Shown: positions 12,455 to 64,000, counted from the stretch's first letter. The stretch: 64,000 bases of DNA from Bacteroidales bacterium (GCA_963664245.1 OY760934.1:2300376-2364375); one strand, 5' to 3'. The notes: generated by a model from the letters alone, not told the origin. Numbers and translations are program-made.

Positions 12455-12560
12455 GTTAATATTTTTTAAGTTAAAATTTTGGGGCTAAATTTATAAAAAA
12501 GCCTTGATAGTTATGTTTTTTTACAGATATAATCTACAAATGATAATTCGTAGCAGACAA

Positions 12561-12594
12561 ATAAAAAGGTGTGCCTTTTGACACACCTTTATTT
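12561..12594 (-). terminator. rho-independent terminator after the upstream Dcp paralog
   Basis: Stem AAAGGTGTG (12565-12573) pairs with CACACCTTT (12582-12590) across an 8-nt loop, followed by a T-run on the minus strand. Confidence 0.7.
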
Positions 12595-12611
12595 ATATAA
12601 TTTTGAGACTT

Positions 12612-14708: not shown

Positions 14709-14733
14709 GTTAATTGATGTTTTAGTTAATATG

Positions 14734-16413
14734 TTAGTTAAGGTCGAGTTTATCCGGTCCTTGTTCAAAAACAATATCTACCGGAATATTTGCCGATCCT
14801 AAACGATTTAAATCTTTTTGAAGCATTTCTTTGATGATGCCTTCTTCTTTTATCCATTTAGCAGCAGCCTCATAATTTCCGTCTCCCTGAATGTGAAGGA
14901 TTTCCTGCATGATAGAAATCATAGCTTTGTGCATTTTGTCGAAATTAATAGTGTAATATCCTTTTTTGTCTTGGGTAAAAGCACCTTTTTCGGCGAAATA
15001 GTTAAAGCGCATCATGTTGGCTTTTCCGTGGGCACTGGCTGCTCCGAAACGGCTCGAGCGGAAAATCCCGGCAAAGAAAGTAACAAAATTGTCCATTACT
15101 TCACCTTCGGTTAGTTCGCCCATTTCGTAAAGTTTGGTAACCAGGTAAAGCCCCATAATGTCGGCTTTTCCTTCTTCAATGGAAGAATATTTTTCTTTTA
15201 AGGCTTCGCGAACCGTTTGACTTCCGTCGATGGTATTTTTAATTCCCATGGCGTGGCCTACTTCGTGGAACATGGTGTTTTCGAAAAATGCGTTAAACGT
15301 AACGTGTTTTAACTGTTTCGGATTGATAAGTATTTCGGCGATTGGCACCAAAATTTTATCAAATTTAGCTTTCATTGCATTTTTAAGTTGCAATTTGCGC
15401 GAACCGCATTTTAAATGAACTTCTTCGTCATTGGGTAAATTAATGGCGATGGTTTTGCTGCCTGCGTTACAATCGCCGGCATAATAAATCACATCGTAGG
15501 CGTTCATATCGGCATTGGCCCCCGGAATTTCTTTTTTGTATTCATCTTCAATCGGCAGACCTTTTTGAAGTTCGGGAAGCATGGCTCCGAATTTTGCCAG
15601 TTTTTTGCTCCAGTCTAAATCTTTTAATAAAATGAAAGATTCATTGGCTGCTTTGTAGCCGTAAAGAGCGTCTTCGTAATTTTCAATCGGGCCTACCACA
15701 AAATCGATGTTTGAATTTTTCATTTCCATCCAGGCAAAATCACTGGGTTGGTAGTCGTCGGTAATTAATGCTTCAGCGCGGAGGGTTAAATATTTTTTCA
15801 AACCTTCGTCTTCAGCCAGGTCAGCAGCTTTTAATAGTAAATCGTGTGCTTTTTGAAGTTTTTCGGCGTAAGCCTCGTGATACCAAACTACTTTTAAATC
15901 GCCGGCTTTATTACGGCGAATCAACGTATACAAACTGGTTTTGTTTGGATCTTCAATGGCTTCAAATTCTTTTTTGGTCATGTCGGCAGGATAAAAATTT
16001 GCCCCGGCCGGTTTGGTTCCGATTTCTTTGATGAACGGTTTATTTCCGTTTAAACGATCCCAGGGACCATAATTGATTTTTGCAAACTTTTTGGTGTTCT
16101 CATCGGTAATTTTGTTAAAGAACGCTTCTTTGTTACCAATGGTTTGCTCCCAATAAATTTCCTGCATAATATCAGCTATTTCAAACAAAATCGGAAGCAT
16201 TTGTTTTTCTTTAACCGACAAATGGCTTACGTCAGCGGTCAATTCAAAAGGCGCGTAAATGGCTAAGCGGTTTTGGATTACTTCATCAGAAACCGGCGTT
16301 AATGCTTCTGCATCCGGAATGATGGTTTGTGAATAATAGGATTTGTCCATGTTACAAGCAGTTATTAATACGAATGTAAAAACAACTAATGAAATTAAAT
16401 GTTTTGTTCTCAT
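14734..16413 (-). CDS. secreted zinc hydrolase, DPP3 (M49)-like family
   Basis: Start trimmed to ATG 16413 (MRTKHLISLVVFTFVLITACN lipoprotein signal). It has an HExxH-type motif MFHEVGHAMG followed by EEGKAD, resembling the two-motif arrangement of DPP3-family enzymes. The family assignment is by recollection only. Confidence 0.5.
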   Translation of the reverse strand: MRTKHLISLVVFTFVLITACNMDKSYYSQTIIPDAEALTPVSDEVIQNRLAIYAPFELTADVSHLSVKEKQMLPILFEIADIMQEIYWEQTIGNKEAFFNKITDENTKKFAKINYGPWDRLNGNKPFIKEIGTKPAGANFYPADMTKKEFEAIEDPNKTSLYTLIRRNKAGDLKVVWYHEAYAEKLQKAHDLLLKAADLAEDEGLKKYLTLRAEALITDDYQPSDFAWMEMKNSNIDFVVGPIENYEDALYGYKAANESFILLKDLDWSKKLAKFGAMLPELQKGLPIEDEYKKEIPGANADMNAYDVIYYAGDCNAGSKTIAINLPNDEEVHLKCGSRKLQLKNAMKAKFDKILVPIAEILINPKQLKHVTFNAFFENTMFHEVGHAMGIKNTIDGSQTVREALKEKYSSIEEGKADIMGLYLVTKLYEMGELTEGEVMDNFVTFFAGIFRSSRFGAASAHGKANMMRFNYFAEKGAFTQDKKGYYTINFDKMHKAMISIMQEILHIQGDGNYEAAAKWIKEEGIIKEMLQKDLNRLGSANIPVDIVFEQGPDKLDLN

Positions 16414-55708: not shown

Positions 55709-55737
55709 AAAACCCATCACTTAAGCGATGGGTTTTT
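55709..55737. terminator. bidirectional rho-independent terminator between tyrS and the 13-gene operon
   Basis: The 10-bp stem AAAACCCATC (55709-55718) pairs with GATGGGTTTT (55727-55736) across an 8-nt loop. Confidence 0.7.
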
Positions 55738-55754: not shown

Positions 55755-56198
55755 TTAATTGTAAGCCAGGCGGGTTTCTTTATCGCTCAATGTTGGCTTA
55801 ATTAATTCTTGCCATTTTTCCGATTTCCAGGTTCCCATTTTTTGGTGCGTCAAATAATATTTTTCCGGGATGGGATGTGTTCCCACCACGACTTTAACGC
55901 CAAATTTTTGTTCAATATAATTTTTGAAGTGATTAATACGGGTACATGGCGGATAACCAACCACCATTCCGGTAGCAAAATGAATCACCTCCACGCCGTT
56001 TTTTATCATTTCTTCGGGGGAGTACTCAATGTTTCCGCCGGGGCAACCTCCGCAAGTGGTATAACCGGCAATTTCAACGTCTTCATCTTTTCCGTAAATA
56101 CTAAAACCTCCTTCACGGTTTTGCAATGCCCTGAAACATTTTCCTCCGGCGCAATTGTGGTAACGGTGACAAATGACGATTCCAATCTTTTTACTCAT
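55755..56198 (-). CDS. CGGC-domain protein (Cys/His-rich, putative metal binding)
   Basis: Start trimmed to ATG 56198 (MSKKIGIVICHRYHNCAGGKC), with the CGGCPG motif. It overlaps the upstream gene by 8 nt (ATGAGTAA). Confidence 0.7.
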   Translation of the reverse strand: MSKKIGIVICHRYHNCAGGKCFRALQNREGGFSIYGKDEDVEIAGYTTCGGCPGGNIEYSPEEMIKNGVEVIHFATGMVVGYPPCTRINHFKNYIEQKFGVKVVVGTHPIPEKYYLTHQKMGTWKSEKWQELIKPTLSDKETRLAYN

Positions 56199-56859
56199 GG
56201 TTTTGTAATTTTTGATGCTCGTTAATAATATCTTTAATTTCCTGCATGCTAAAGTTATATTGTTTCCGTAAACGCCCGATGCGTTCGTCATCAGAAATAC
56301 CGGAAGGAATTCCCAGTTTCTTTTTTAATTCGCTGCACGAAATTTTGTATTCCTTTGAAATTTGACCCAGGCTCATTTGCCCGTTAATATCGATGGATGA
56401 ATAAGTATGTTCTTCATCGAGACTACCTGTTTTTTTCTCCTGAATCAGCAGATCATTATTTTTATTTCGGTAATGCGATTCGTCTTCGCCAATTTGAGGT
56501 TTTAATATAAAAGGAATCAAAACAATTAAAACCATGATGACTAAAAAAGCCCAGGCTAGCAATATCCGCAAGACTTTTGCTTTGATCCATTGGGTGTAAA
56601 TACATACGATTTGTTTCCAGTGGAGCAAAATATGTAAGATAAGCAGAACGATTAATACAATGCCTAAAATATAATGGATTTCGCCCCATTGGTGTCGGTC
56701 GAGGTTCATGAATAAAAACTCTCGGTTTTCTCCGTACAGTTCCCATTTTTCCTGACCGGTGGGCAGCATATATTTTACTAATAAACCAATACTTAAAATA
56801 ATAGCCATCACTAGTAACATGATGACATCAATAATGAAGTTTAACCTGTTTTTCCTCAT
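56191..56859 (-). CDS. DUF4405-like membrane protein (His-containing helices, possible b-type heme binding) with a soluble C-terminal tail
   Basis: 222 aa with helices carrying RHQWGEIHYILG and LHILLHWKQI. The C-terminal tail of about 70 aa is hydrophilic. Confidence 0.55.
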   Translation of the reverse strand: MRKNRLNFIIDVIMLLVMAIILSIGLLVKYMLPTGQEKWELYGENREFLFMNLDRHQWGEIHYILGIVLIVLLILHILLHWKQIVCIYTQWIKAKVLRILLAWAFLVIMVLIVLIPFILKPQIGEDESHYRNKNNDLLIQEKKTGSLDEEHTYSSIDINGQMSLGQISKEYKISCSELKKKLGIPSGISDDERIGRLRKQYNFSMQEIKDIINEHQKLQNHE

Positions 56860-56863
56860 AGCT

Positions 56864-57643
56864 TTAAATATTTATTTGGATGCCTGCCTTTATTTCGGGG
56901 CAGTTAAAGTTTTTTTGAAGTTCGGTCAACGCCTCGGATTGGGTGCAATGCGATGGGTAAATCGTGTTTATTTCTTGGCACTTTAAATATGCAATGGTTT
57001 TTTGGGTTTGTGTGTTGTTTTCTTTTAGATGCAAGCCTCCCAAAAGGGTTTTAATGGTTTGGATTCCCGTAACTTTTTTGGCGTGTTCAACAATATTGCA
57101 AATGCCCGAATGGGCGCAACCCGAAATAATTATTAATTCATTGTTTTGGATGATTGCCAGTGCTGAATCATCTAAAACATAATCCGGTTTGTTGTGTTCG
57201 TCAACAAAGGTGGTTTCTTTTGCCTCAAAGTCGTTGGTTCGGGGAATTTCTCCCAAAAAAATAATTGAATTGCTTATATTGTAAGGATTCCGGGTGTTTA
57301 CCAGTTTAAATTTTTTATTCAAATCGAGATAGCAAAGGTTTAAACCGATAAAAGAATGATCGGAATTACGGTAGCGTTTAATGAATGAATAAGGATGGCA
57401 GATTAAGGTTTTGTTGTTTAAAAATTTTAAGCCGTTTCCGTGATCCCAATGCCCGTGGCTTAGCACAATGGTTTCAACTTTTTCTAAATCGACATTGAGT
57501 TTTTTTGCGTTTTCCAGAAACAGCTTGGAGTGTCCGGCATCAAGCAATAAGCTTGTGCCTTCGTGTTCGATATAAAAAGATAAGCCGTGTTCGGCACCAA
57601 AGCCTTTTAAAGCCTGGTTGTCGGTTAAAACTGATAGTTTCAT
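56864..57643 (-). CDS. MBL-fold metallo-hydrolase (COG1237/MJ0301-like subgroup by appearance)
   Basis: 259 aa with HGHWDH and an N-terminal LSVLTDNQA...AEHGLSFYIE pattern. Confidence 0.75.
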   Translation of the reverse strand: MKLSVLTDNQALKGFGAEHGLSFYIEHEGTSLLLDAGHSKLFLENAKKLNVDLEKVETIVLSHGHWDHGNGLKFLNNKTLICHPYSFIKRYRNSDHSFIGLNLCYLDLNKKFKLVNTRNPYNISNSIIFLGEIPRTNDFEAKETTFVDEHNKPDYVLDDSALAIIQNNELIIISGCAHSGICNIVEHAKKVTGIQTIKTLLGGLHLKENNTQTQKTIAYLKCQEINTIYPSHCTQSEALTELQKNFNCPEIKAGIQINI

Positions 57644-58026
57644 TGCTTGCTGTTTTTTAGTTCAAACAAATTTCCGCTTTGGTCTTTTAGAAAAATTAAA
57701 TCATGGGTGCTATTTCGTTGTATTTGTATGATTTCGTAATGTCTCTTTTTTGCTTTGTTAAGAATTATTTCCAGGTTTGTGAATGACAAACACAGATGAT
57801 TACAATTCACCTGTGTTTGTTTATCTGTCAAAAATAGTTCAAAATAAAATTCATCGCTTTGTAATAAAAACACATTGACTTCTTTCTTGATATTAAAAAT
57901 TCTCAAGGCCAACTCTGACGAGAGTATAAAATTTCGAGTGTTATTCATTCCCAAAATATCAATGTAAAAATTTTGGATGTCCTCAAGGTGTGTAATCGTT
58001 ATTGCAATATGTTCTAATTTCATCAA
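57640..58026 (-). CDS. VOC (glyoxalase/bleomycin-resistance/dioxygenase fold) family protein
   Basis: 128 aa with an N-terminal LEHIAITITHLEDIQNFYIDILGM pattern. It overlaps the MBL gene by 4 nt. Confidence 0.55.
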   Translation of the reverse strand: MMKLEHIAITITHLEDIQNFYIDILGMNNTRNFILSSELALRIFNIKKEVNVFLLQSDEFYFELFLTDKQTQVNCNHLCLSFTNLEIILNKAKKRHYEIIQIQRNSTHDLIFLKDQSGNLFELKNSKQ

Positions 58027-58043
58027 AAAAATGAATAATGGAT

Positions 58044-59399
58044 TTATGAATTTGAAATGATTTTATCGTAAGCATTTTCGGCCGCTTTAATTAAAGGGTA
58101 TCCGGCTGGTGATGCTGTTAACAAAGGATGTGTTCCTATTTGAGCCGTCAACAGGGAATTTAGGTTCATCCTGTTTTGAATGATAATCCCGATGGTATTG
58201 GTTAGTTCACCGGATGAAAGTCCACCAAAAACCTCACCTCCTAAAATAATACCCGATTCTTTGCCGACAATTAATTTTATTAATTGTTTGTGGGTGTCGG
58301 CGAGGGTTCCGGGATGGCGGTCGATACCTTCAAATACCCCGGTTACAATATCAAAGCCTTCTTTTTTGGCCATGCTTTCGGTTAATCCGGCAACGCCGAA
58401 ACCATTGCTGCCAAAGGCGGTAGAGAAAATAGAAATGGTTCCGTTAAACGTTTTAATGGCCGAAAGTTTGTACAGGTTCATGCCTGCAATACGAGCTTCG
58501 GCACAAGCCGTTGAGGCTAACATGATTGGACTGGGTTTGCGGGTGAAAAAGTCCCTTTTTTCAGCACAATCGCCCACGGCAAATATATTGGAATCTTCGG
58601 TACGCATGTATTCGTCTACTTTGATGTAGCCGTTTTCCGACATGGGAAGATTTGCTTTTGTTGCAAGGTTTATGTCGGGTTTGTATCCCATGGCTAAAAT
58701 AACGGCATCAGCATCAATTTTTTCTCCGTTTTCGAGCTCAACTTGTTGAACCTTTTGATTCCCGAGAATTTGTTTGATCCCGTTTCCTTTGATGATTTTT
58801 AATCCACGTTCTTCTAAAATACTTTCTACTTTACTTGCAAATTCTTCATCAAAAGCCAGGCTTAAAATATGTGGTAATTTTTCGATGAGGGTAATATCTT
58901 TACCTTTTTTTATTAATTCGTCCGAGATTTCAGCACCGATGAACCCCCCGCCGACAACAACTATTTTTTTATACTCCGATAATTTGGGGATAATATTGTC
59001 GATATAGTTTTTGTTTTTCGGGATGGTGAATACATTTTCCAGATCATGACCTTTTAACCAATGAGGTACGCTGGGAACAGAGCCCGTTCCCATGACTAGT
59101 TTTTCGTAGCTCAGTTTCTGGCCGTTTTTTAATTCAACGCAATTATTTTTACGGTCGATGTCAGAAACTTCTTCATGGATGATGTTTATGCCCATTGATT
59201 CGCACATTTTTTCGGCCGGCAAAATGTTGTTGCTTGTTGATTCAACAGATCCGAACACGTATGGAATTCCACAAGGAATAAGGGTTTGAGATTGTTTTGA
59301 AATAATAGTTACATCCTTGTTTTTATAGATTCTTTTAGCGGTAGTTGCGGCAACCAATCCGGATGCACTACTACCAATAACGATAACATCTGATTTCAT
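58044..59399 (-). CDS. FAD-dependent pyridine nucleotide-disulfide oxidoreductase, CoA-disulfide reductase/NADH oxidase-peroxidase type
   Basis: 451 aa with dinucleotide motifs VIGSSASG and VVGGGFIGAE, a single redox Cys in LIPCGIPYVFG, and GDCA. Confidence 0.8.
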   Translation of the reverse strand: MKSDVIVIGSSASGLVAATTAKRIYKNKDVTIISKQSQTLIPCGIPYVFGSVESTSNNILPAEKMCESMGINIIHEEVSDIDRKNNCVELKNGQKLSYEKLVMGTGSVPSVPHWLKGHDLENVFTIPKNKNYIDNIIPKLSEYKKIVVVGGGFIGAEISDELIKKGKDITLIEKLPHILSLAFDEEFASKVESILEERGLKIIKGNGIKQILGNQKVQQVELENGEKIDADAVILAMGYKPDINLATKANLPMSENGYIKVDEYMRTEDSNIFAVGDCAEKRDFFTRKPSPIMLASTACAEARIAGMNLYKLSAIKTFNGTISIFSTAFGSNGFGVAGLTESMAKKEGFDIVTGVFEGIDRHPGTLADTHKQLIKLIVGKESGIILGGEVFGGLSSGELTNTIGIIIQNRMNLNSLLTAQIGTHPLLTASPAGYPLIKAAENAYDKIISNS

Positions 59400-59400
59400 T

Positions 59401-59739
59401 TTAAAATTTGTTTAGTGTTTTGTTTTTAAAGGCTTTATAAGCCTGTTCAATGTTCATGTCGTTGGCTCCGATATAAATCTCAATGCCGATTTTTTCGAGG
59501 ATTTGTGCAGCATTTCCGCCAGGACCGTTTCCTGTGATTAAAATATCCGGCTTCATTTCAAATAATTTTTGAGCTGTTTTTGGACCCGCACCATGCGCTT
59601 CGTTTTCAATTTCGCGGTTATCGAAACTGTTTATTTCCTGCGTGTCTTCGTCGTATATTAACAGGTAGTCAGTTCGTCCAAAACGGGGATCTATCATTGA
59701 ATCCCACTTGTTTCCTTTGCTTGTAAATGCAATTTTCAT
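59401..59739 (-). CDS. NifX/NifB-C-terminal-type (dinitrogenase FeMo-cofactor-binding fold, MTH1175-like) protein
   Basis: 112 aa with RFGRTDYLLIYD, ITGNGPGGNA and an overall ribonuclease-H-like NifX pattern. Confidence 0.75.
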   Translation of the reverse strand: MKIAFTSKGNKWDSMIDPRFGRTDYLLIYDEDTQEINSFDNREIENEAHGAGPKTAQKLFEMKPDILITGNGPGGNAAQILEKIGIEIYIGANDMNIEQAYKAFKNKTLNKF

Positions 59740-59746
59740 CTGATTT

Positions 59747-60619
59747 TTATATTAAATGTTTAATTTTTTCAAAACTCTCTTTAATAATTTCTTTGACCTT
59801 ACCATCATCGTACTCAACAATACATTTGCCCTGTATCATTGCTTTGGTGAAGCTTTCGTTGTATGGAACAACGTTCAACAGCTCAATGTTTTCTGCAATT
59901 AAATAAGCCTTGATTGTTTGGGTATATTCCGGGTTTATATCAAATTTATTAATGATGCAGCCGGCTTTTATTTTAAACTTTTTAACCAGTTCGTAAACCC
60001 GTTGTAAATCATGAAATCCTGATTTACTGGGTTCGGTAACCAGTACCACGTAATGTGCCCCCGAAAGCGATGAAATAACCGGGCATCCGATTCCTGGGGA
60101 GCCGTCTACCAGGATGATATTTTTGCCTTCTTTTTCTGCAATTTCCCGGGCCTTTTTTTTCACTTCAGCCACCAGTTTGCCAGAATTCTCTGCAGCTATT
60201 CCGAGCTTTGCATGAACCATGTTTTGTTTGTGCTTGGTGGTTGAAATATAAAGCTGTCCCACATTGTTGCTTTTCATTTGTATGGCCTGTGTGGGACAAA
60301 CTTTTTCGCAATACCCGCAACCTTCACAATCGAGTTCGTCAACGTAGAAATTGTTTGCCGTTTCTTTTATCGCATCAAAACGGCAGATGTTTTTACAAAT
60401 CCCGCATTGGGTACATTTTTCCGGGGCAATGTTTGCAATGAACCCGCTGTAGAAATCATTTTGTTCGAGGACATTTGGTTGTAACAATAAATGTAAATCA
60501 GCGGCATCTACATCACAATCGGCCACCACAATATCGTTTATGCCAAGGCATGCAAACGAAGCGGTTATTGAGGTTTTTCCGGTGCCCCCTTTTCCTGATA
60601 TTACCACAATTTCTTTCAT
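59747..60619 (-). CDS. MinD/ParA-type P-loop ATPase with inserted 2x[4Fe-4S] ferredoxin domain
   Basis: Deviant Walker A SGKGGTGKTS, CTQCGICKNIC and CEGCGYCEKVCP. It overlaps the upstream paralog by 4 nt. Confidence 0.8.
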   Translation of the reverse strand: MKEIVVISGKGGTGKTSITASFACLGINDIVVADCDVDAADLHLLLQPNVLEQNDFYSGFIANIAPEKCTQCGICKNICRFDAIKETANNFYVDELDCEGCGYCEKVCPTQAIQMKSNNVGQLYISTTKHKQNMVHAKLGIAAENSGKLVAEVKKKAREIAEKEGKNIILVDGSPGIGCPVISSLSGAHYVVLVTEPSKSGFHDLQRVYELVKKFKIKAGCIINKFDINPEYTQTIKAYLIAENIELLNVVPYNESFTKAMIQGKCIVEYDDGKVKEIIKESFEKIKHLI

Positions 60620-61482
60620 CTTGCTCCCTCCTGGTTTAATTCAAAAACCTGTTGTTTGATGGATTCGAAAACTGCTGGTATGCCAGGTATTTTATCATAA
60701 AATAATTCTCCTTTCGAGTATAATTCGGCAATGTTCCGGTCGTGTTTAATTTTGGCTAGGATGGCGATGTTTTCTTTCCGGCAGTATTTTTCCACTTCAT
60801 CGTTCCCGATCCCGTCGCGGTTTATAACCACCCCCATTTTTTTCTTTAATTTTTTAACGGTTTCTATGGCTAGTTTTAAATCGTGAAAACCAAAAGGAGT
60901 CGGTTCGGTAACCAAAATAACAAAATCAACCTTTTTAATGGTTTCGATAACCGGGCAGGATGTTCCCGGCGGGGCATCAAATATCACAATTGCCGAATTG
61001 TTGAAATGGTTTTCAATATAATCAACACTTTGGGCAATAAGCGGAACAGCTTGTTCCTGGCCGATCATCAAACGACTTTCGATAAAATTAAGTGTATTGT
61101 TTTTAAAATGACGGAGCTCTCCTATTTTTTCGGTAATCATGGGTAGAGAACCGGTAGGGCATAATTCTGAGCAAGCAAAACAACTGTGGCACAATTGAGG
61201 GAAAACGGAAATGTGTTTTCCCAGTTGTATAATTGCATTAAAATTGCAGTTTTTCTGGCAATTTCCACAGTAGGTACAATTGTCTTCTACCCATTCAGGA
61301 ACCATTTTAAATTTATCTTCGGTGTTTACCAGGTTTCCCTGGATAAACAAACCGGAATTGGGTTCCTCAACATCTAAATCAGCTAAAATTACGTCGGAAG
61401 ATTTTGACAAAAACGAAGCAAAATTTGTTGACAGGCTCGTTTTTCCTGTTCCTCCTTTTCCGCTGGCAATGGCTATTTTCAC
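60616..61482 (-). CDS. MinD/ParA-type P-loop ATPase with inserted 2x[4Fe-4S] ferredoxin domain (paralog)
   Basis: Deviant Walker A SGKGGTGKTS, CTYCGNCQKNC and CHSCFACSELCP. It overlaps the upstream gene by 4 nt. Confidence 0.8.
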   Translation of the reverse strand: MKIAIASGKGGTGKTSLSTNFASFLSKSSDVILADLDVEEPNSGLFIQGNLVNTEDKFKMVPEWVEDNCTYCGNCQKNCNFNAIIQLGKHISVFPQLCHSCFACSELCPTGSLPMITEKIGELRHFKNNTLNFIESRLMIGQEQAVPLIAQSVDYIENHFNNSAIVIFDAPPGTSCPVIETIKKVDFVILVTEPTPFGFHDLKLAIETVKKLKKKMGVVINRDGIGNDEVEKYCRKENIAILAKIKHDRNIAELYSKGELFYDKIPGIPAVFESIKQQVFELNQEGAR

Positions 61483-61964
61483 TTTTTTCGTAATATGGTT
61501 TGTTCGGGAACCTTTTGTCCGTTAAAATGTTTATCAACCCAACCGGAGTTTACGTTTTTGCGTTCATCAAAATGTTTAACAAAAGGCTTGATGTCCAGAA
61601 CTGGTGTGCCGTCAAAAACATCTACTTCTGAGAAGTAGAGTTTATGGTTTTCGATTATATTAATTTTTACAATGGAGAACCCGATTTTATTTGGCCGGTG
61701 CGGGCTCCTGATGGCAAAAATGCCATGCTTAACAGGCTCCAAAAATGGTTGCCCGACCAAGGTTGTTTTATCGGTTTGGTGAAAATAATAAATCAAAATA
61801 GCATGCGAAAACCCCTCCAGATCAAGAAGCCCTTCGGTAAATTCTTCCTTTAAGATACAACAGGCCTCGGTTTCGGGTTTAAAGCAACCCTGAATGGGCA
61901 TGTCTTTCGTCTCTTTATAAGGCGATTCAATGAATCCGATAGGTTCAAAACATATCTTTTCCAT
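61479..61964 (-). CDS. TsaA/TrmO-family (UPF0066) SAM-dependent methyltransferase-fold protein
   Basis: 161 aa with IGFIESPY, HRPNKIGFSIV and DGTPVLDIKPF. Confidence 0.75.
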   Translation of the reverse strand: MEKICFEPIGFIESPYKETKDMPIQGCFKPETEACCILKEEFTEGLLDLEGFSHAILIYYFHQTDKTTLVGQPFLEPVKHGIFAIRSPHRPNKIGFSIVKINIIENHKLYFSEVDVFDGTPVLDIKPFVKHFDERKNVNSGWVDKHFNGQKVPEQTILRKK

Positions 61965-61970
61965 GGACTG

Positions 61971-62309
61971 TTAGTGGTCGCAAAGGTTCTCTCCGGTTTT
62001 TAATTGATTGTTTAAGTAATCTGAAACTAATTGCTTGGGACTTCCTGCACCTACACCCATACACACGGCAATGTTGTTTTGTGTGAAAAGGTCTTGTGCT
62101 TTTTGGCCCATTCCGCCGGCAATAATAACATTTACGCCTTGCTCGGCTAAATACCTGGGATAAACCCCGGGTTGGTGAACCGGTGGGGTAATGCTTTGTT
62201 CGTTAGTGATTGTTCCGTTTTCGGTATCAATAATTGCAAATTTTTCGCAATGTCCGAAATGGGCGGTTAGTTCTCCGTTTAATGTTGGTATGGCAAATCT
62301 TTTATTCAT
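61971..62309 (-). CDS. NifX/NifB-C-terminal-type (MTH1175-like) protein
   Basis: 112 aa with HFGHCEKFAIID and VIIAGGMGQKA. Confidence 0.75.
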   Translation of the reverse strand: MNKRFAIPTLNGELTAHFGHCEKFAIIDTENGTITNEQSITPPVHQPGVYPRYLAEQGVNVIIAGGMGQKAQDLFTQNNIAVCMGVGAGSPKQLVSDYLNNQLKTGENLCDH

Positions 62310-62310
62310 G

Positions 62311-62493
62311 TTATTTATTTTTTAATAGTTCTTCCCTTATCATTGTTTTTCCACAGTTGGGGCATTTTAAAGTGGTGCATTTGACCCCTTTTTGATGAGG
62401 TATTTTGGTTCCGCATTTCGCGCAGATACAAAATCCTCCGGGACCAAATGCCCCGCCTTTGTTTTTTCCTTTTCCAGGATTGTTATTTTGCAT
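62311..62493 (-). CDS. 60-aa Gly/Lys-rich, Cys-rich zinc-ribbon-like mini-protein
   Basis: [10 protein letters not shown]....[10 protein letters not shown]. It overlaps the upstream stop by 11 nt and ends 1 nt before the next gene. Confidence 0.55.
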
Positions 62494-62785
62494 TTTTCGA
62501 CTCTAAATCTTTTAACCTGGATTCAAGCACAGAAATATGATCTTTGAACCGTTGGATTTCGTTTCTAAGATCACTTTCGTTGATTTCATTTTCGGGATAA
62601 TTTCTTCTGAAACCTCTTCCAAACCCTAAAAATGAGCGATGATACCTGCGGTTTCTGAACCCTCTTCCCATTCTTCCGAATGACTGGGTTTCGTATCCTG
62701 CCGAATCGTACCCGGCACAATATCCTAATTTTTTTCCGCTTAATGGACCTTTACCTTCCGGCCCTGTTTTGTTTCCTGCTGGCAT
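62483..62785 (-). CDS. DUF5320-like protein (Gly/Arg-rich N-half, coiled-coil C-half)
   Basis: Start trimmed to ATG 62785 ([26 protein letters not shown]...GRGFRN...), with a C-terminal heptad-like [23 protein letters not shown]. Confidence 0.6.
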
Positions 62786-63242
62786 AATGACCTCCTTTTT
62801 TTTGATTTCTGTTTGCACAACATCTGCCGTGACCAAAACCGCCTGCCAGGTTTAAAATGTTTTTTGAATGGCAGGACGGGCATTCTGAAACTGTTTCATG
62901 AATGTTTATATTGAACAAATGTCCACAACTTTTACATCGGATGATGTTTTTTCGGAAATGAACATTGCCCCCGTCAATGAAAAGCATTTTCCCGTCGATG
63001 ATTAATTCCGACACTTTTTTCCGTGCCTGTTCTATTAAACGTGTAAAAGTAGAGCGGGATATTTCCATTTCTTCCGAAGCTTCTTCGTGCGATAAACCAA
63101 GTTTATCAGCTAATCGGAGTGCTTCAAATTCATCCAATGATAAATTTACTTCTTCAAGCATGCTTCCTTTTACCCCTGTTGGTTTAAATTCGTTAAACAA
63201 AGGGGGCTCTTGTACTATCCGGTTGTTTTTTGGTCGAGGCAT
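62751..63242 (-). CDS. DUF134 (UPF0251) family putative DNA-binding regulator with C-terminal CxxC...CxxC zinc ribbon
   Basis: MPRPKNNR...LSLDEFEALRLAD..GLSHEEASEEMEISRSTFTRLIEQARKKV, a sigma70 region-4-like HTH, followed by CKSCGH...CPSCHS. It is the first gene of the operon. Confidence 0.75.
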   Translation of the reverse strand: MPRPKNNRIVQEPPLFNEFKPTGVKGSMLEEVNLSLDEFEALRLADKLGLSHEEASEEMEISRSTFTRLIEQARKKVSELIIDGKMLFIDGGNVHFRKNIIRCKSCGHLFNINIHETVSECPSCHSKNILNLAGGFGHGRCCANRNQKKGGHYASRKQNRAGR

Positions 63243-63259
63243 AATAAATATTTATACCA

Positions 63260-63267
63260 CAAAAGTA
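63260..63267 (-). promoter_or_regulatory. Bacteroidota -7 promoter box TACTTTTG for the DUF134-led operon
   Basis: The minus strand reads TACTTTTG (matches TAnnTTTG), with 17 nt between the box and the ATG at 63242. The palindrome ACATATGT lies just upstream at 63272-63279. Confidence 0.45.
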
Positions 63268-63313
63268 ATGAACATATGTGCAAAAAGCAATAGTGCAGTA
63301 AAATTTTTTTAGC

Positions 63314-63400
63314 ATGAAGTTTTGCAACGATTTGCTGAATAAAAAATGTATCCTTGTTCAGAAAGGGAAGAAGAACTATTTTTCAGTGAAAGTTATATAA
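63314..63400 (+). pseudogene. remnant copy of the tyrS 3' end (28 codons)
   Basis: 63329-63400 aligns with tyrS 55607-55678 at 58/72 nt and 19/23 aa ([23 protein letters not shown] versus [23 protein letters not shown]). Confidence 0.7.
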
Positions 63401-63405
63401 TGATC

Positions 63406-63448
63406 GCTGAGCGGAGTCGAAGCGTCATTTCGACTTCGCTCAATGACC
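63406..63448. repeat. inverted pair of REP-like units forming a 14-bp hairpin; probable convergent terminator of cysS and the ancestral tyrS
   Basis: TGAGCGGAGTCGAA (63408-63421) pairs with TTCGACTTCGCTCA (63429-63442), with one G-U pair and a 7-nt loop. 18 nt (63406-63423) are the exact reverse complement of 41031-41048. Confidence 0.7.
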
Positions 63449-63453
63449 ATTCT

Positions 63454-64000
63454 TTATTCTTTATTCTTTAATGCCTCATCAAAGATCTTTTTAATCATAT
63501 CTTTGAATTTATAACTTACACCATCCTTTTCGTCTAAAACTATAATTCCTTGTTCCGCTAGTTTATTTCTAATTTCATCTGCAGCCTCCCAATCCCTTCT
63601 TTCTTTTGCACTTTTACGGATTTTGCTTAAAACTTCCATCAATTTATCAGAGAGTTCATCATTAGCTGAATTAATTTTTTCTGTTTTTAATCCTAAAATC
63701 TCAAATACAAAATCATTGAAAAGTTGCTTAAGCAAATCAATATCTTCCTGTTTCAGGCTGGCTTTGCCATCGTTCACCGAGTTGATCCATTTTACGCCTT
63801 CAAATAAATGGGCAATCAAAATCGGGCTGTTAAAATCGTCGTTTAAGGCAGCATAGGCTTTTTCTTTTAGTTTGGCGAAATTATAATCAGACGTTTCTCC
63901 GGCTTTTAGTTTGTTAATGGTTTCAACGGCTTTCAATAATTTAGTCAGTCCTTTTTCGGCAGCTACCAAAGCTTCATTTGAAAAATCAAGCGTACTCCTG
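63454..64000 (-). CDS. cysS: cysteine--tRNA ligase, C-terminal part (gene continues beyond window end)
   Basis: The frame stays open to base 64000 (...FSNEALVAAEKGL...). It has LNDDFNSP and the C-terminal RRDWEAADEIRNKLAEQGI pattern typical of CysRS. Confidence 0.8.
   Translation of the reverse strand, partial: RSTLDFSNEALVAAEKGLTKLLKAVETINKLKAGETSDYNFAKLKEKAYAALNDDFNSPILIAHLFEGVKWINSVNDGKASLKQEDIDLLKQLFNDFVFEILGLKTEKINSANDELSDKLMEVLSKIRKSAKERRDWEAADEIRNKLAEQGIIVLDEKDGVSYKFKDMIKKIFDEALKNKE

What the first reader, a model, noticed from the sequence alone, without database searches (positions are those of the whole stretch)
59401..63242. Self-regulated metallocluster-handling module of unknown function: DUF134 + DUF5320 + Cys-rich mini-protein + 2 NifX-like + TsaA/TrmO-like + 2 MinD-ferredoxin ATPases
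Seen: eight consecutive minus-strand genes have junctions from a 35-nt overlap to a 7-nt gap, including 4-nt overlaps at 61479-61482 and 60616-60619. The motifs are as follows.
- A DUF134 HTH (LSLDEFEALRLAD...STFTRLIEQARKKV).
- A deviant Walker A GKGGTGKTS in both ATPases, each with two ferredoxin-type CxxCxxCxxxC motifs inserted after the P-loop.
- Two 112-aa NifX/NifB-C-type domains (HFGHCEKF, RFGRTDY).
- A TsaA/TrmO-fold protein (HRPNKIGFS, DGTPVLDIKPF).
Established: NifX/NafY/NifB-C domains bind FeMo-co or its precursors. MinD/Mrp/NBP35/CooC-type ATPases deliver metal clusters. TrmO is a SAM-dependent tRNA methyltransferase fold. DUF134 resembles sigma70 region 4.
Inference: no nitrogenase genes lie nearby, so this looks like an autonomous ATP-driven cluster assembly or delivery machine with its own regulator. 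To my recollection, NifX-like (MTH1175-like) genes recur next to MinD-ferredoxin ATPase genes in anaerobes (sulfate reducers, clostridia, methanogens), with no cofactor, client or phenotype assigned. That recollection needs checking. The TsaA/TrmO-like gene embedded between carrier and ATPases is the most unexpected member.
Basis: partly seen in the sequence, partly recalled or inferred. Interest (0 to 1): 0.8.

Follow-up and report, generated by a model that had tools for sequence, protein, structure and literature searches.

The report
Orange-protein-type metallocluster operon, Bacteroidota variant
The eight genes are real and co-conserved, but they are the front of a 13-gene operon encoding a Bacteroidota version of the partly studied "orange protein" complex of anaerobes, whose cellular job is still unknown; here it has a different regulator with a recognisable DNA site and an optional SAM-binding partner.

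Summary
All eight minus-strand ORFs, their junctions and all family calls hold.

The module is cut short. Five more co-directional, tightly packed genes follow: a CoADR/Nox-type flavoprotein, VOC, MBL-fold, DUF4405 and CGGC. The operon spans 55755-63242 and ends at a hairpin terminator.

The core is NifX-fold / MinD-ferredoxin ATPase x2 / NifX-fold. It matches the Desulfovibrio ORP (orange protein) core gene for gene. NifX-A carries the signature motifs of the MrpORP cluster-binding domain. The claim that no cofactor or phenotype is assigned is therefore outdated, although the physiological role of ORP remains unknown.

New here:
- DUF134 replaces the sigma54 activator OrpR. A conserved 14-bp CATATG-centred palindrome sits at a fixed distance upstream of 8 of 12 DUF134 genes, and three more carry a related GCATATGC variant.
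- Natural MinD1-MinD2 fusions and a NifX::DUF5320::ferredoxin fusion exist.
- The TrmO-like protein keeps the AdoMet-binding residues but lacks the C-terminal domain needed for tRNA methylation. It is an optional insert: absent from 7 other ORP-type loci, yet repeatedly adjacent to NifX-fold or MrpORP genes elsewhere.

Verdict: new variant of a known kind, moderate interest.

The parts
63269..63282 (.). 14-bp near-palindrome, TGCACATATGTTCA on the gene strand. Candidate operator of the DUF134 regulator.
   Evidence: It is the only exact site in the 64-kb window. The same CATATG-centred palindrome, with at most 2 mismatches to TGAACATATGTTCA, lies 40-49 nt upstream of the start codon of 8 of 12 DUF134 genes. 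Three more carry a GCATATGC variant at -31/-32. Among the upstream windows of the fetched loci, the only ones with 3 or fewer mismatches contain a DUF134 site.
63260..63267 (-). Candidate Bacteroidota -7 promoter box, TACTTTTG (TAnnTTTG). It lies 1 nt downstream of the palindrome and 17 nt upstream of the ATG.
   Evidence: Read directly from the sequence. Homologous loci have TACCTTTG, TATCTTTG, TAACTTTG or TATATTTG in the same position. The consensus itself is from my own knowledge of Bacteroides promoters. No sigma54-type -24/-12 site lies in 63243-63453.
62751..63242 (-). DUF134/UPF0251 protein, 163 aa: sigma70-region-4-like HTH, then a CxxC-x17-CxxC zinc-ribbon-like motif, then a GGFGHGRCC tail. 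Putative autoregulator.
   Evidence: PF02001 1e-22; Sigma70_r4_2 1e-6 (28.5 bits against a cutoff of 25.7). It is the first gene of the cluster in L009, L035 and L093-L096. The zinc-ribbon cysteines are conserved in most homologues.
62483..62785 (-). DUF5320 protein, 100 aa: Gly/Arg-rich N-terminal part with one Cys.
   Evidence: PF17253 5e-19. It is co-conserved in the cluster. In L022 it is fused between a NifX domain and a 2x[4Fe-4S] ferredoxin domain (1655-2581).
62311..62493 (-). 60-aa Cys-rich protein with the pattern CxCxxC-x5-H-x6-C-x5-CxxC.
   Evidence: It is conserved at 62-74% identity in Bacteroidota loci and 46% in a Planctomycetota locus. The Planctomycetota copy has a DUF5320-like N-terminus. 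This exact sequence is absent from the public protein collection.
61971..62309 (-). NifX-A, 112 aa: a stand-alone copy of the cluster-binding (Di-Nase) domain of MrpORP/Orp9.
   Evidence: PF02579 2e-17. It matches positions 265-365 of the NCBIfam MrpORP model at 2e-36. It carries HFGHCE, TPPVHQPGVYP and a C-terminal CDH, the three motifs reported for the MrpORP Di-Nase domain. It is 38% identical to the NifX gene that follows the ATPases in Desulfovibrio sp. X2.
61479..61964 (-). Single-domain, archaeal-type YaeB/TrmO_N AdoMet-binding beta-barrel, 161 aa. It occupies a variable slot of the operon.
   Evidence: PF01980 4e-36; AF0241 (2NV4) 6.5e-22. The AdoMet-contact residues Q25, R86, D115 and K126 are invariant in 35 homologues. 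There is no DPRxxY C-terminal domain. The conserved C-terminal tail is predicted with low confidence.
60616..61482 (-). MinD1, 288 aa: deviant-Walker-A ATPase with an inserted 2x[4Fe-4S] ferredoxin domain. Counterpart of the first ORP-locus ATPase.
   Evidence: CbiA/ParA plus Fer4 families. It is 37% identical (2e-70) to the first ATPase of the Desulfovibrio sp. X2 orp locus and only about 30% to the second. Walker A, eight ferredoxin cysteines and a ninth cysteine in PPGxxCP are invariant.
59747..60619 (-). MinD2, 290 aa: the paralogous ATPase with an inserted 2x[4Fe-4S] domain. Counterpart of the second ORP-locus ATPase.
   Evidence: It is 46% identical (8e-89) to the second Desulfovibrio sp. 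X2 ATPase. The AF2 model has pLDDT 87.8. The best PDB fold matches are MinD, then FleN/FlhG, NifH, Soj and Cfd1. Natural MinD1-MinD2 fusions of about 600 aa exist.
59401..59739 (-). NifX-B, 112 aa: orange-protein (Orp8)/MTH1175-type NifX-fold protein.
   Evidence: PF02579 5e-15. PDB sequence hits: TM1290 1e-11, D. gigas ORP 2WFB 7e-11 and MTH1175 4e-8. It is 31% identical to the ORP of Desulfovibrio sp. X2.
58044..59399 (-). FAD/NAD(P)H pyridine-nucleotide-disulfide oxidoreductase of the CoADR/Nox/Npx type, 451 aa, with a single candidate redox Cys in PCGIPY.
   Evidence: Pyr_redox_2 8e-60. The best NCBIfam models are CoA-disulfide reductases, but below their cutoffs. The gap to NifX-B is 1 nt. 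A homologue follows the cluster in L001, L004 (62% identical), L021, L094, L095 and L096.
57640..58026 (-). VOC/glyoxalase-fold protein, 128 aa.
   Evidence: PF00903 1e-5. It overlaps the next gene by 4 nt. No homologue was detected in the related loci.
56864..57643 (-). MBL-fold protein, 259 aa.
   Evidence: PF00753 1e-9. Homologues lie in the same position in L009, L095 and L096.
56191..56859 (-). DUF4405 membrane protein, 222 aa.
   Evidence: PF14358 2e-12. Syntenic in L009, L095 and L096.
55755..56198 (-). CGGC-domain Cys-rich protein, 147 aa.
   Evidence: PF08821 7e-29. It is the last gene of the cluster in L009 and L095. In L094 a CGGC gene sits in the slot that TrmO_N occupies here.
55709..55736 (.). 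Hairpin AAAACCCATC-N8-GATGGGTTTT between the convergent CGGC and tyrS genes. Likely a bidirectional terminator.
   Evidence: Terminator scan and direct reading.

Best explanation
The finding is the front part of a 13-gene, 7.5-kb operon (55755-63242, minus strand) of an anaerobic Bacteroidota chromosome. The operon encodes a lineage-specific version of the ORP (orange protein) system.

**Shown here**
- The four-gene core (NifX-A, MinD1, MinD2, NifX-B) corresponds one to one to the core of Desulfovibrio orp loci.
- Most of the surrounding genes recur with the core in other Bacteroidota and in Cloacimonadota: DUF134, DUF5320, the 60-aa Cys protein, the CoADR-type flavoprotein, MBL, DUF4405 and CGGC. 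No homologue of the VOC gene was seen in any related locus.

**Taken from the ORP literature**
- Orp3, Orp4 and Orp8 co-purify.
- The MrpORP NifX-like domain carries a low-potential [3Fe-4S] cluster.
- Expression is confined to low redox potential.

**Inferred mechanism**
1. MinD1 and MinD2 form an ATP-dependent heterodimer, as deviant-Walker-A ATPases do. Natural tandem fusions support this.
2. The inserted ferredoxin domains make the dimer redox-active.
3. The dimer docks the two NifX-fold proteins. The assembly holds, reduces or passes on a labile metal-sulfur cluster (Fe-S, possibly Mo/W-containing).
4. DUF5320 and the 60-aa Cys protein act as small subunits or adaptors.
5. The flavoprotein, MBL, DUF4405 and CGGC proteins supply reducing or sulfur chemistry.
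6. DUF134 binds the CATATG-centred palindrome that abuts the -7 promoter box and autoregulates the operon. It may sense metal or redox through its Cys motifs, taking the place of the sigma54 activator OrpR.
7. The TrmO-like protein is an AdoMet-binding accessory whose substrate is probably not tRNA.
For: **Core orthology**
- MinD1 and MinD2 each match a different ATPase of the Desulfovibrio sp. X2 orp locus best (2e-70 and 8e-89). NifX-B matches ORP and NifX-A matches the trailing NifX gene.
- NifX-B hits the D. gigas ORP structure 2WFB at 7e-11.
- NifX-A matches the C-terminal domain of the MrpORP model at 2e-36 and carries its published HFGHCE, TPPxHxPGxxP and CDH motifs.

**Synteny**
- Four of four loci fetched with MinD2 as bait show DUF134-DUF5320-small Cys-NifX-(slot)-MinD1-MinD2-NifX. 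Pyr_redox_2 follows in three of them, MBL and DUF4405 in two, and a trailing CGGC gene in one.
- L009 shows the DUF134 to NifX-B row followed by MBL, DUF4405 and CGGC, without the flavoprotein or VOC genes.

**Heterodimer**
- About 30 of the best 150 library representatives are proteins of about 600 aa with a MinD1-like first half and a MinD2-like second half.
- Walker A with the signature Lys, all eight ferredoxin cysteines and a ninth Cys after Walker B are invariant across four phyla.
- The fold is MinD/NifH-class.

**DUF5320 as part of the machine**
- A NifX::DUF5320::2x[4Fe-4S] fusion exists in L022.

**Regulation**
- The palindrome is conserved at a fixed distance upstream of DUF134 genes. 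Only windows containing a DUF134 site match it among the upstream windows of the fetched loci.
- There is a single exact site in the window, no riboswitch and no sigma54 promoter.

**Biochemistry of the homologues**
- PMC6345978 and PMC8359166.
Against: - No experiment exists for this organism, and the physiological role of the ORP system itself is still described as unclear.
- The only reported phenotype is altered cell morphology, which points to cell division rather than cluster handling.
- The Di-Nase cluster of MrpORP was transferred poorly in vitro.
- The Mrp/NBP35 half of MrpORP, the proven Fe-S donor, is missing from this operon and was not looked for elsewhere in the genome.
- DUF134 binding to the palindrome is inferred from conservation only. 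Another factor could use the site.
- The accessory genes vary between lineages, so their roles are guesses.
- Homology of the 60-aa protein to Orp5 was not tested, because no Orp5 sequence was available.
Confidence: 0.6

Rival explanations
1. Metal and sulfide homeostasis or storage island. The NifX-fold proteins sequester iron-sulfide (as IssA does with thioferrate) or thiomolybdate/thiotungstate. The ATPases and the CoADR-type (per)sulfide reductase load or unload this store. The system protects the cell from sulfide or metal excess rather than maturing a client enzyme.
For: - The orange protein binds a Mo-Cu-S cluster non-covalently, and IssA of the same domain family binds thioferrate (cited in PMC6345978).
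- Related loci carry sulfur and metal traffic genes inside or next to the cluster:
  - DsrE and TauE (L004)
  - ArsP_2 (L093)
  - rhodanese and a Cys/Met-metabolism PLP enzyme (L094)
  - MBL+rhodanese (L008)
  - a CDF transporter fused to a NifX domain (L073)
- A CoADR/Nox-type flavoprotein is a recurrent member.
Against: - NifX-A carries the Cys/His motifs of a protein-ligated [3Fe-4S] site, not the cationic tail reported for IssA.
- The ATPases with their own ferredoxin domains look like redox-active machinery rather than storage.
- No Mo/W transporter or riboswitch is present in the window region examined.
Confidence: 0.2
2. Spatial or cell-division function. The two MinD-like ATPases position something (septum, pole, or a protein complex) in an ATP- and redox-dependent way. 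The metalloproteins serve as sensors.
For: - The closest folds are MinD, FleN and FlhG.
- Loss of orp expression in D. vulgaris gives morphological defects, and MrpORP localises to a cell pole.
- Orp3 and Orp4 are reported to have a MinD-like C-terminal amphipathic helix.
Against: - No minC/minE-like or division genes lie in or near the operon.
- The operon partners are all redox or metal proteins.
- The authors themselves call the division link hypothetical.
- An amphipathic helix was not tested here.
Confidence: 0.1
3. The TrmO-like gene is an ordinary tRNA m6t6A methyltransferase that merely happens to lie inside the operon. The rest is a generic Fe-S carrier set.
For: - It passes the NCBIfam TrmO equivalog cutoff (122.6 against 93 bits), and public annotations name homologues TrmO or TsaA.
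- Two thirds of the loci of this subfamily that have enough flanking sequence show no ORP gene nearby.
- Seven ORP-type loci lack it.
Against: - It lacks the C-terminal DPRxxY domain whose mutation abolishes m6t6A formation. It resembles the archaeal-type homologues for which no m6t6A is known.
- In 13 of 78 dereplicated loci a NifX-domain gene is its direct neighbour, in four different architectures. These include a bona fide MrpORP directly downstream (L047, 547 bits against a cutoff of 450) and an OrpR-type locus (L022).
Confidence: 0.07

Closest known systems
ORP (orange protein) system of Desulfovibrio vulgaris, D. gigas and D. alaskensis (Orp3, Orp4, Orp5, Orp8, Orp9/MrpORP; regulator OrpR)
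   Same: - Two paralogous MinD-type ATPases, each with two [4Fe-4S] motifs, flanked by two NifX-fold proteins.
- One NifX-fold protein is ORP-like; the other is like the MrpORP Di-Nase domain.
- Small Cys-rich proteins lie in the locus.
- The system is restricted to anaerobes.
- One-to-one best matches to a Desulfovibrio sp. X2 orp locus.
   Different: - One operon instead of two divergent ones.
- A DUF134 HTH protein and a sigma70-type promoter with a palindrome replace OrpR, sigma54 and IHF.
- The Di-Nase domain stands alone, with no Mrp/NBP35 half in the operon.
- The order of the two NifX paralogues is swapped.
- Extra members are present: DUF5320, TrmO_N, a CoADR-type flavoprotein, VOC, MBL, DUF4405 and CGGC.
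NifX / NafY / NifB C-terminal domain (FeMo-cofactor carriers of nitrogenase maturation)
   Same: The same Pfam domain (PF02579) in both small proteins. They associate with a SIMIBI-class ATPase, whose fold also resembles NifH.
   Different: No nif genes among the window genes examined. The sequences group with the ORP/MTH1175 and MrpORP subgroups, not with nif-linked proteins.
TrmO/YaeB class VIII AdoMet-dependent methyltransferase (E. coli TrmO; archaeal AF0241, PDB 2NV4)
   Same: Beta-barrel UPF0066 domain. All four AdoMet-contacting residues are conserved.
   Different: - Single domain, without the DPRxxY C-terminal domain required for m6t6A formation.
- A subfamily-specific conserved tail (D133, R135, G141, W142, H146, F147, P153).
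- Recurrent linkage to NifX-fold and MrpORP genes.
MinD / ParA / NifH / Mrp-NBP35 deviant-Walker-A ATPases
   Same: GKGGxGKT Walker A with the signature lysine, Walker B, and a MinD-like fold.
   Different: - A 2x[4Fe-4S] ferredoxin domain of about 50-60 residues is inserted after the P-loop region.
- There is no Mrp-type CxxC and no NifH-type cluster ligand pair. A single invariant Cys sits in PPGxxCP.
- The proteins occur as an obligate paralogue pair or as a tandem fusion.
OrpR (sigma54 enhancer-binding protein with an Fe-S PAS sensor)
   Same: A dedicated regulator encoded at the locus. The ChIP-seq regulon of OrpR is only the orp operons, and it binds a palindrome upstream.
   Different: DUF134 is an unrelated small HTH protein with zinc-ribbon-like Cys motifs. 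Its site (TGAACATATGTTCA type) and its position against the -7 box suggest direct action on a sigma70-type promoter.

Membership tests
ORP (orange protein) system | A pair of paralogous MinD-type ATPases, each with two [4Fe-4S] ferredoxin motifs (Orp3/Orp4) | tested here: met
   Pfam CbiA/ParA plus Fer4 in both. Reciprocal-type best matches to the two ATPases of the Desulfovibrio sp. X2 orp locus (2e-70, 8e-89). All eight Cys are invariant.
ORP (orange protein) system | Single-domain orange-protein (Orp8) homologue | tested here: met
   NifX-B hits D. gigas ORP 2WFB at 7e-11 over residues 2-105. It is 31% identical to the ORP of Desulfovibrio sp. X2.
ORP (orange protein) system | MrpORP/Orp9: Mrp/NBP35 ATPase fused to a Di-Nase domain | tested here: not met
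   Only the Di-Nase part is present, as stand-alone NifX-A. It matches MrpORP model positions 265-365 at 2e-36, with a total score of 126 bits against a cutoff of 450. No Mrp-type gene lies in the operon. The rest of the genome was not searched.
ORP (orange protein) system | Di-Nase signature motifs CxHFGHCE, TPPPHxPGxxP and C-terminal CDH | tested here: met
   NifX-A has TAHFGHCE (the first Cys is replaced), TPPVHQPGVYP and ...NLCDH at its end. The motifs are as listed in PMC6345978.
ORP (orange protein) system | Sigma54 promoter plus the enhancer-binding protein OrpR | tested here: not met
   The first gene is a DUF134 HTH protein. No -24/-12 match lies in 63243-63453.
ORP (orange protein) system | Physical complex of the proteins; metal clusters (Mo-Cu-S on ORP, Fe-S on the others) | not testable with these tools
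   Needs anaerobic purification and spectroscopy. The only indirect support is the natural fusions.
TrmO (tRNA m6t6A37 methyltransferase) | UPF0066 beta-barrel with the AdoMet-binding residues (AF0241 Q22, R82, D111, K122) | tested here: met
   These align to Q25, R86, D115 and K126. All four are invariant in alignment A1. The residue list is from PMC4132733.
TrmO (tRNA m6t6A37 methyltransferase) | C-terminal domain with the DPRxxY motif, required for m6t6A formation | tested here: not met
   The protein ends 35 residues after the barrel (…HFDERKNVNSGWVDKHFNGQKVPEQTILRKK) and has no DPRxxY. The Pfam hit covers TrmO_N only.
TrmO (tRNA m6t6A37 methyltransferase) | Methylation of t6A37 in tRNA-Thr | not testable with these tools
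   Needs tRNA mass spectrometry or an in vitro assay.
NifX/NafY/NifB-C FeMo-cofactor carriers | Nitro_FeMo-Co domain | tested here: met
   PF02579 at 2e-17 and 5e-15.
NifX/NafY/NifB-C FeMo-cofactor carriers | Genomic association with nitrogenase structural or maturation genes | tested here: not met
   No nif gene was found among the ORFs of 42.8-64 kb read directly, nor among the 20 of the 33 ORFs of at least 180 aa in 1-42.8 kb that were scanned.
Mrp/NBP35 Fe-S carriers | Conserved CxxC motif that bridges a [4Fe-4S] cluster between monomers | tested here: not met
   MinD1 and MinD2 have one invariant Cys (PPGxxCP) after Walker B, not CxxC.
MinD cell-division ATPases | Deviant Walker A and MinD fold | tested here: met
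   GKGGTGKT. Foldseek top hits are MinD 3R9J and 1HYQ, E about 7e-12, TM 0.6-0.7.
MinD cell-division ATPases | MinC/MinE partners and a C-terminal membrane-targeting helix | not tested
   No minC/minE-like gene was seen in the operon. Amphipathicity of the C-termini was not analysed.
DUF134 / UPF0251 | Match to PF02001 above the gathering score | tested here: met
   80.8 bits against a cutoff of 27.

The most novel reading that the evidence does not exclude
The single-domain TrmO-like AdoMet-binding barrel does not act on tRNA. It acts on a NifX-fold or MrpORP-bound metal-sulfur cluster or on its carrier, for example by transferring a methyl (or another AdoMet-derived group) to a cluster sulfide or metal. 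In the lineages that carry it, the ORP-type system would then be a SAM-dependent route to a modified metallocluster, independent of the radical-SAM NifB route. The conserved, apparently disordered tail of the barrel would dock onto the NifX-fold partner.
Probability: 0.12. Interest if true: 0.85.

Novelty: new variant of a known kind. Interest (0 to 1): 0.55.

Why it matters
The ORP system is one of the widespread, anaerobe-specific metalloprotein sets whose cellular job has stayed open for about two decades. So far it has been studied almost only in Desulfovibrio, where genetics is slow and the regulator is a sigma54 activator.

This locus shows that the same core exists in Bacteroidota, Cloacimonadota and Planctomycetota as a single compact operon. 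It offers several concrete handles:
- A candidate operator for the uncharacterised DUF134 family. Only 3 incidental mentions were found in the held literature.
- A recurrent set of redox and sulfur accessory genes that constrains hypotheses on function.
- Natural fusions that predict the subunit contacts.
- An AdoMet-binding partner that public annotation names TrmO but that fails a defining TrmO feature.

Each of these can be tested directly by EMSA, pull-downs, metal analysis and tRNA mass spectrometry.

Tried and rejected
- **Genome-collection scan.** The systematic sample therefore comes from metagenome contigs, many of them short.
- **Founding ORP paper.** Fievet et al. 2011 (J Bacteriol) could not be read. 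What I say about it comes from later papers by the same group and from memory.
- **Orp5 and Orp7 counterparts.** I could not test whether the 60-aa Cys protein or DUF5320 are Orp5 or Orp7 homologues. The small unannotated proteins of the Desulfovibrio sp. X2 locus gave no BLAST or Pfam link.
- **Riboswitch.** An Rfam scan at permissive threshold found nothing, so a riboswitch (for example Moco or SAM) is rejected.
- **Sigma54 promoter.** No site lies in the upstream region, so this is rejected.
- **Second operator site.** A 2-mismatch site at 62912-62925 lies inside the DUF134 coding sequence and is at chance level.
- **Literature searches.** Searches linking TrmO/TsaA/YaeB with NifX or orange protein, and for DUF134/UPF0251, gave nothing relevant.
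- **Nitrogenase-related reading.** Rejected for lack of nif genes.
- **L002.** The 180-195-aa protein in the DUF134 position has a signal-peptide-like N-terminus and no Pfam hit. DUF134 is therefore not universal.
- **TrmO-like structure.** The prediction was only moderately confident (pLDDT 72) and was not taken to a fold search.

Full report
**1. Observation**

The ORF list shows the eight minus-strand genes exactly as described:
- DUF134, 62751-63242
- DUF5320, 62483-62785, taking the ATG at which the Pfam match starts
- a 60-aa Cys-rich ORF, 62311-62493
- NifX-A, 61971-62309
- a TrmO_N protein, 61479-61964
- MinD-Fer4 #1 (MinD1), 60616-61482
- MinD-Fer4 #2 (MinD2), 59747-60619
- NifX-B, 59401-59739

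Their junctions are -35, -11, +1, +6, -4, -4 and +7 nt. Pfam and NCBIfam confirm each family call. The 60-aa protein gives only sub-threshold zinc-ribbon matches.

**2. The unit is longer than reported**

One nucleotide after NifX-B the same strand continues with five more genes:
- a 451-aa pyridine-nucleotide-disulfide oxidoreductase of the CoADR/Nox type (58044-59399; single Cys in PCGIPY)
- a VOC-fold protein (57640-58026)
- an MBL-fold protein (56864-57643)
- a DUF4405 membrane protein (56191-56859)
- a CGGC-domain protein (55755-56198)

Their junctions are +17, -4, +4 and -8 nt.

A hairpin, AAAACCCATC-N8-GATGGGTTTT at 55709-55736, lies between the CGGC stop and the convergent tyrS gene. 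Upstream, the cysS gene ends at 63454 and is followed by its own 13-bp-stem hairpin. The operon therefore probably has its own promoter in 63243-63393.

No Rfam family matches the region and no sigma54-type promoter is present there. PorZ in the window places the organism in Bacteroidota. The exact proteins occur on a closed chromosome of about 3.73 Mb in public data. No nitrogenase gene was seen among the window ORFs inspected.

**3. What the core is**

*The two NifX-fold proteins differ.*
- NifX-B hits the solved structures of TM1290, the Desulfovibrio gigas orange protein (2WFB, 7e-11) and MTH1175.
- NifX-A hits TM1816 and PH0822.
- NifX-A also matches the C-terminal domain of NCBI's MrpORP model at 2e-36.

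*Direct comparison with an orp locus.* I fetched a Desulfovibrio sp. X2 orp locus (L008) through the ORP sequence. Its gene order is: sigma54 activator, two small genes, ORP, MinD-Fer4, MinD-Fer4, NifX, a small gene, MBL+rhodanese. BLASTP gives one-to-one correspondences:
- MinD1 with the first ATPase (37% identity, 2e-70)
- MinD2 with the second ATPase (46%, 8e-89)
- NifX-B with ORP (31%)
- NifX-A with the trailing NifX gene (38%)

Two further Desulfobacterota-type loci (L097, L098) have the same four-gene core.

*What the literature says (PMC6345978 and PMC8359166).*
- The ORP complex consists of Orp3 and Orp4 (two [4Fe-4S] motifs each), Orp5 (small, homologous to a [2Fe-2S] protein), Orp8 (orange protein, Mo-Cu-S cluster) and Orp9 = MrpORP.
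- Orp3 co-purifies with Orp4 and Orp8.
- MrpORP transfers Fe-S to them.
- Its NifX-like "Di-Nase" domain binds a [3Fe-4S] cluster (-445 mV) and carries the motifs CxHFGHCE, TPPPHxPGxxP and CDH.
- The orp operons are expressed only at low redox potential, through the sigma54 activator OrpR.
- The role of the proteins "is however still unclear".

NifX-A has HFGHCE, TPPVHQPGVYP and a terminal CDH.

**4. Co-conservation**

Four loci fetched with MinD2 homologues as bait all show the same layout. They are L093 (Cloacimonadota), L094 (Lentimicrobiaceae), L095 (Bacteroidales) and L096 (an unnamed 1.7-Mb contig).
- *Front of the cluster:* DUF134, DUF5320, small protein, NifX.
- *Variable slot:* Usp in L093, CGGC in L094, empty in L095 and L096.
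- *Core:* MinD1, MinD2, NifX.
- *After the core:* ArsP_2 in L093. Pyr_redox_2 in L094-L096, preceded in L094 by CobA and a PLP enzyme.
- *Tail:* MBL, ARMT1/DUF89 and DUF4405 in L095 and L096, with a final CGGC gene only in L095.

A Bacteroidales MAG (L009) shows homologues of DUF134, DUF5320, the 60-aa protein, NifX-A, TrmO_N, MinD1, MinD2, NifX-B, MBL, DUF4405 and CGGC in the window's order. It lacks the flavoprotein and VOC genes and has two unrelated genes in their place. Prolixibacteraceae (L001/L002) and Anaerohalosphaeraceae (L004) have rearranged versions.

The flavoprotein is 62% identical between the window and the Planctomycetota locus.

MinD2 has 670 relatives at E <= 1e-30 among representatives clustered at 50% identity.

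**5. Additional structural inferences**

- An alignment of both paralogues from four phyla keeps these positions invariant: Walker A (GKGGxGKT), the eight ferredoxin cysteines, Walker B, and a ninth cysteine in PPGxxCP just after Walker B.
- The AF2 model of MinD2 (pLDDT 87.8) is closest to MinD, then FleN/FlhG, NifH, Soj and Cfd1.
- About 30 of the best 150 library representatives are proteins of about 600 aa. In P0390 the first half is MinD1-like (40% to MinD1, 30% to MinD2). The second half is MinD2-like (46% to MinD2, 26% to MinD1). This predicts a MinD1-MinD2 heterodimer.
- In L022 one 308-aa protein joins a NifX domain, DUF5320 and a 2x[4Fe-4S] ferredoxin domain, which ties DUF5320 to the machine.
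- The 60-aa protein belongs to a conserved family with the pattern CxCxxC-x5-H-x6-C-x5-CxxC. Its Planctomycetota member starts with a DUF5320-like N-terminus. The exact window sequence is not in the public protein collection, so the gene is probably uncalled or called differently.

**6. Regulation**

The region upstream of DUF134 reads TGCACATATGTTCA (63269-63282). One nucleotide further on comes TACTTTTG, which fits the Bacteroidota -7 box TAnnTTTG (the consensus is from my own knowledge). The ATG follows 17 nt after the box.

| Locus | Palindrome | Box that follows |
|---|---|---|
| window | TGCACATATGTTCA | TACTTTTG |
| L009 | TGCACATATGTTCA | TACCTTTG |
| L035 | TGAACTTATGTTCA | TATCTTTG |
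| L084 | TACACATATGTTCA | - |
| L095 | TGAACATATGTTCA | TATATTTG |
| L096 | TGAACATAAGTTCA | TAACTTTG |
| L093 | TGCACATATGCTCA | TATATT |
| L047 | TGAGCATATGCTCA | - |

- L026, L077 and L091 carry a related TT(A/G)GCATATGC(C/T)AA.
- Eight of twelve DUF134 genes have a site with at most 2 mismatches to TGAACATATGTTCA, 40-49 nt before the start codon.
- Among the 756 100-nt upstream windows scored in loci L001-L092, the only ones with 3 or fewer mismatches are the DUF134 ones, plus the divergent neighbour of one of them, which shares the same site.
- Plain CATATG occurs in 1.3% of 60-nt upstream windows.
- The window holds a single exact site.

This is strong comparative evidence for an operator. 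That DUF134 is the protein binding it, and that binding represses, are inferences. DUF134 itself has an HTH (Sigma70_r4_2 above threshold), a CxxC-x17-CxxC motif conserved in most homologues, and a Cys-containing tail. This could make it a metal or redox sensor, analogous to the Fe-S PAS domain of OrpR.

**7. The TrmO-like gene**

*What it is.*
- It is 161 aa, with the TrmO_N domain only.
- The four AdoMet-contacting residues defined in AF0241 (Q22, R82, D111, K122) align to Q25, R86, D115 and K126. All four are invariant in 35 homologues.
- The C-terminal DPRxxY domain is absent. Its mutation abolishes m6t6A formation in E. coli.
- The TrmO paper notes that archaeal-type homologues lack this domain. 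[quoted passage not shown]
- The subfamily has its own conserved tail, which AF2 predicts with pLDDT below 50.

*Where it occurs.*
- Homologues 58-66% identical occur in Bacteroidota and Planctomycetota.
- I fetched 80 metagenome loci with the subfamily alignment, plus earlier loci, giving 78 after dereplication.
- Of the 49 loci with at least 4 kb of flanking sequence, 16 (33%) have an ORP-type gene within 5 kb.
- A NifX-domain gene is the direct neighbour in 13 of the 78, in four architectures:
  - NifX-A, TrmO_N, MinD1, MinD2, as in the window
  - TrmO_N followed directly by a bona fide MrpORP (L047, 547 bits against a cutoff of 450; L022, truncated by the contig end)
  - DUF134, NifX, TrmO_N, then two class-I methyltransferases (L077, L091)
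  - TrmO_N, NifX, DUF134 (L084)
- In L022 the operon reads: PAS-sigma54 activator, ORP-like protein, DUF89, TrmO_N, MrpORP. That is an OrpR-type locus.

*Where it does not occur.* None of the seven ORP-type loci sampled without TrmO as bait contains it. Many subfamily members also sit in unrelated contexts. It is therefore an optional accessory with a real, repeated linkage to NifX-fold proteins. It is not a core member, and by the published criteria it is not a TrmO.

**8. Mechanism and rivals**

The best-supported reading is an ORP-type complex:
- an ATP-dependent MinD1-MinD2 heterodimer with four [4Fe-4S] clusters
- two NifX-fold cluster binders docked to it
- small Cys/Gly-rich subunits
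- redox and sulfur support enzymes
- one DUF134-controlled promoter

It would handle a labile metal-sulfur cluster at low potential. The orthology, synteny, fusions and operator conservation are shown here. The biochemistry is borrowed from Desulfovibrio homologues. The direction of cluster flow, the client and the role of ATP are inferred.

The rivals are:
- a metal and sulfide storage or detoxification role, suggested by sulfur and metal traffic genes in related loci and by IssA and ORP chemistry
- a positioning or cell-division role, suggested by the MinD fold and the Desulfovibrio morphology phenotype
- a trivial reading in which the TrmO-like gene is an ordinary tRNA enzyme

**9. Novelty and score**

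The system belongs to a known, partly characterised kind. The new elements are:
- the single-operon Bacteroidota/Cloacimonadota architecture
- the DUF134 regulator and its candidate operator
- the recurrent flavoprotein, MBL, DUF4405 and CGGC tail
- the fusion evidence
- the link between an archaeal-type YaeB barrel and NifX-fold or MrpORP genes

I rate it a new variant of a known kind, with interest 0.55. It is not a surprise in kind. It does give direct experimental handles on a long-standing unknown and flags a probable mis-annotation (TrmO).

Noticed in passing
window 63394-63456: Inverted repeat GAGCGAAGTCGAA-N7-TTCGACTCCGCTC directly after the stop of the upstream cysS-like gene (63454-63969, which runs off the window). 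It is probably the cysS terminator, which would insulate the operon promoter.
   Followed up: partly
window 62311-62493: The 60-aa Cys-rich protein is not in the public protein collection as this exact sequence, although its nine operon neighbours that were looked up are. It is probably an uncalled or differently called small gene in the deposited annotation.
   Followed up: partly
L022 1655-2581 (minus strand): A single 308-aa protein fuses a Nitro_FeMo-Co domain, DUF5320 and a 2x[4Fe-4S] ferredoxin domain. The same locus has a PAS-sigma54 activator, an ORP-like gene, DUF89, TrmO_N and a truncated MrpORP in one row.
   Followed up: partly
L047 4905-6712: The TrmO_N gene ends at the start codon of a full-length MrpORP (432 aa; 547 bits against a cutoff of 450). 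A DUF134 gene with a GAGCATATGCTC palindrome lies upstream in the same locus.
   Followed up: yes
P0390 and about 30 other library representatives: Tandem MinD1-MinD2 fusion proteins of about 580-700 aa, in the same order as the two genes in the operon.
   Followed up: partly
window MinD1 residue C176 / MinD2 residue C179 (PPGxxCP after Walker B): A ninth cysteine, outside the ferredoxin insert, is invariant in both paralogues across four phyla. Its position after Walker B recalls the metal or cluster ligands of NifH, CooC and Mrp at the dimer interface.
   Followed up: no
L073 10353-11651 (also L015 and L039): A cation-diffusion-facilitator transporter (MamB/FieF-like) is fused to a C-terminal NifX-like domain. 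It lies in loci that also hold radical-SAM/SPASM (AhbD-like), PNPOx-like, 60-aa-family and TrmO_N genes.
   Followed up: no
L001/L002 1-3771: A phage-type integrase and a Phage_CRI replication gene lie just upstream of the Prolixibacteraceae version of the cluster. The flavoprotein (62%) and TrmO_N (about 61%) are also very similar between Bacteroidota and Planctomycetota. Together these hint at horizontal transfer of the module.
   Followed up: no
window 10349-14774: Two adjacent paralogous M3-family peptidase genes (701 and 720 aa), followed by an M49 peptidase gene. This is ordinary and unrelated to the finding.
   Followed up: no
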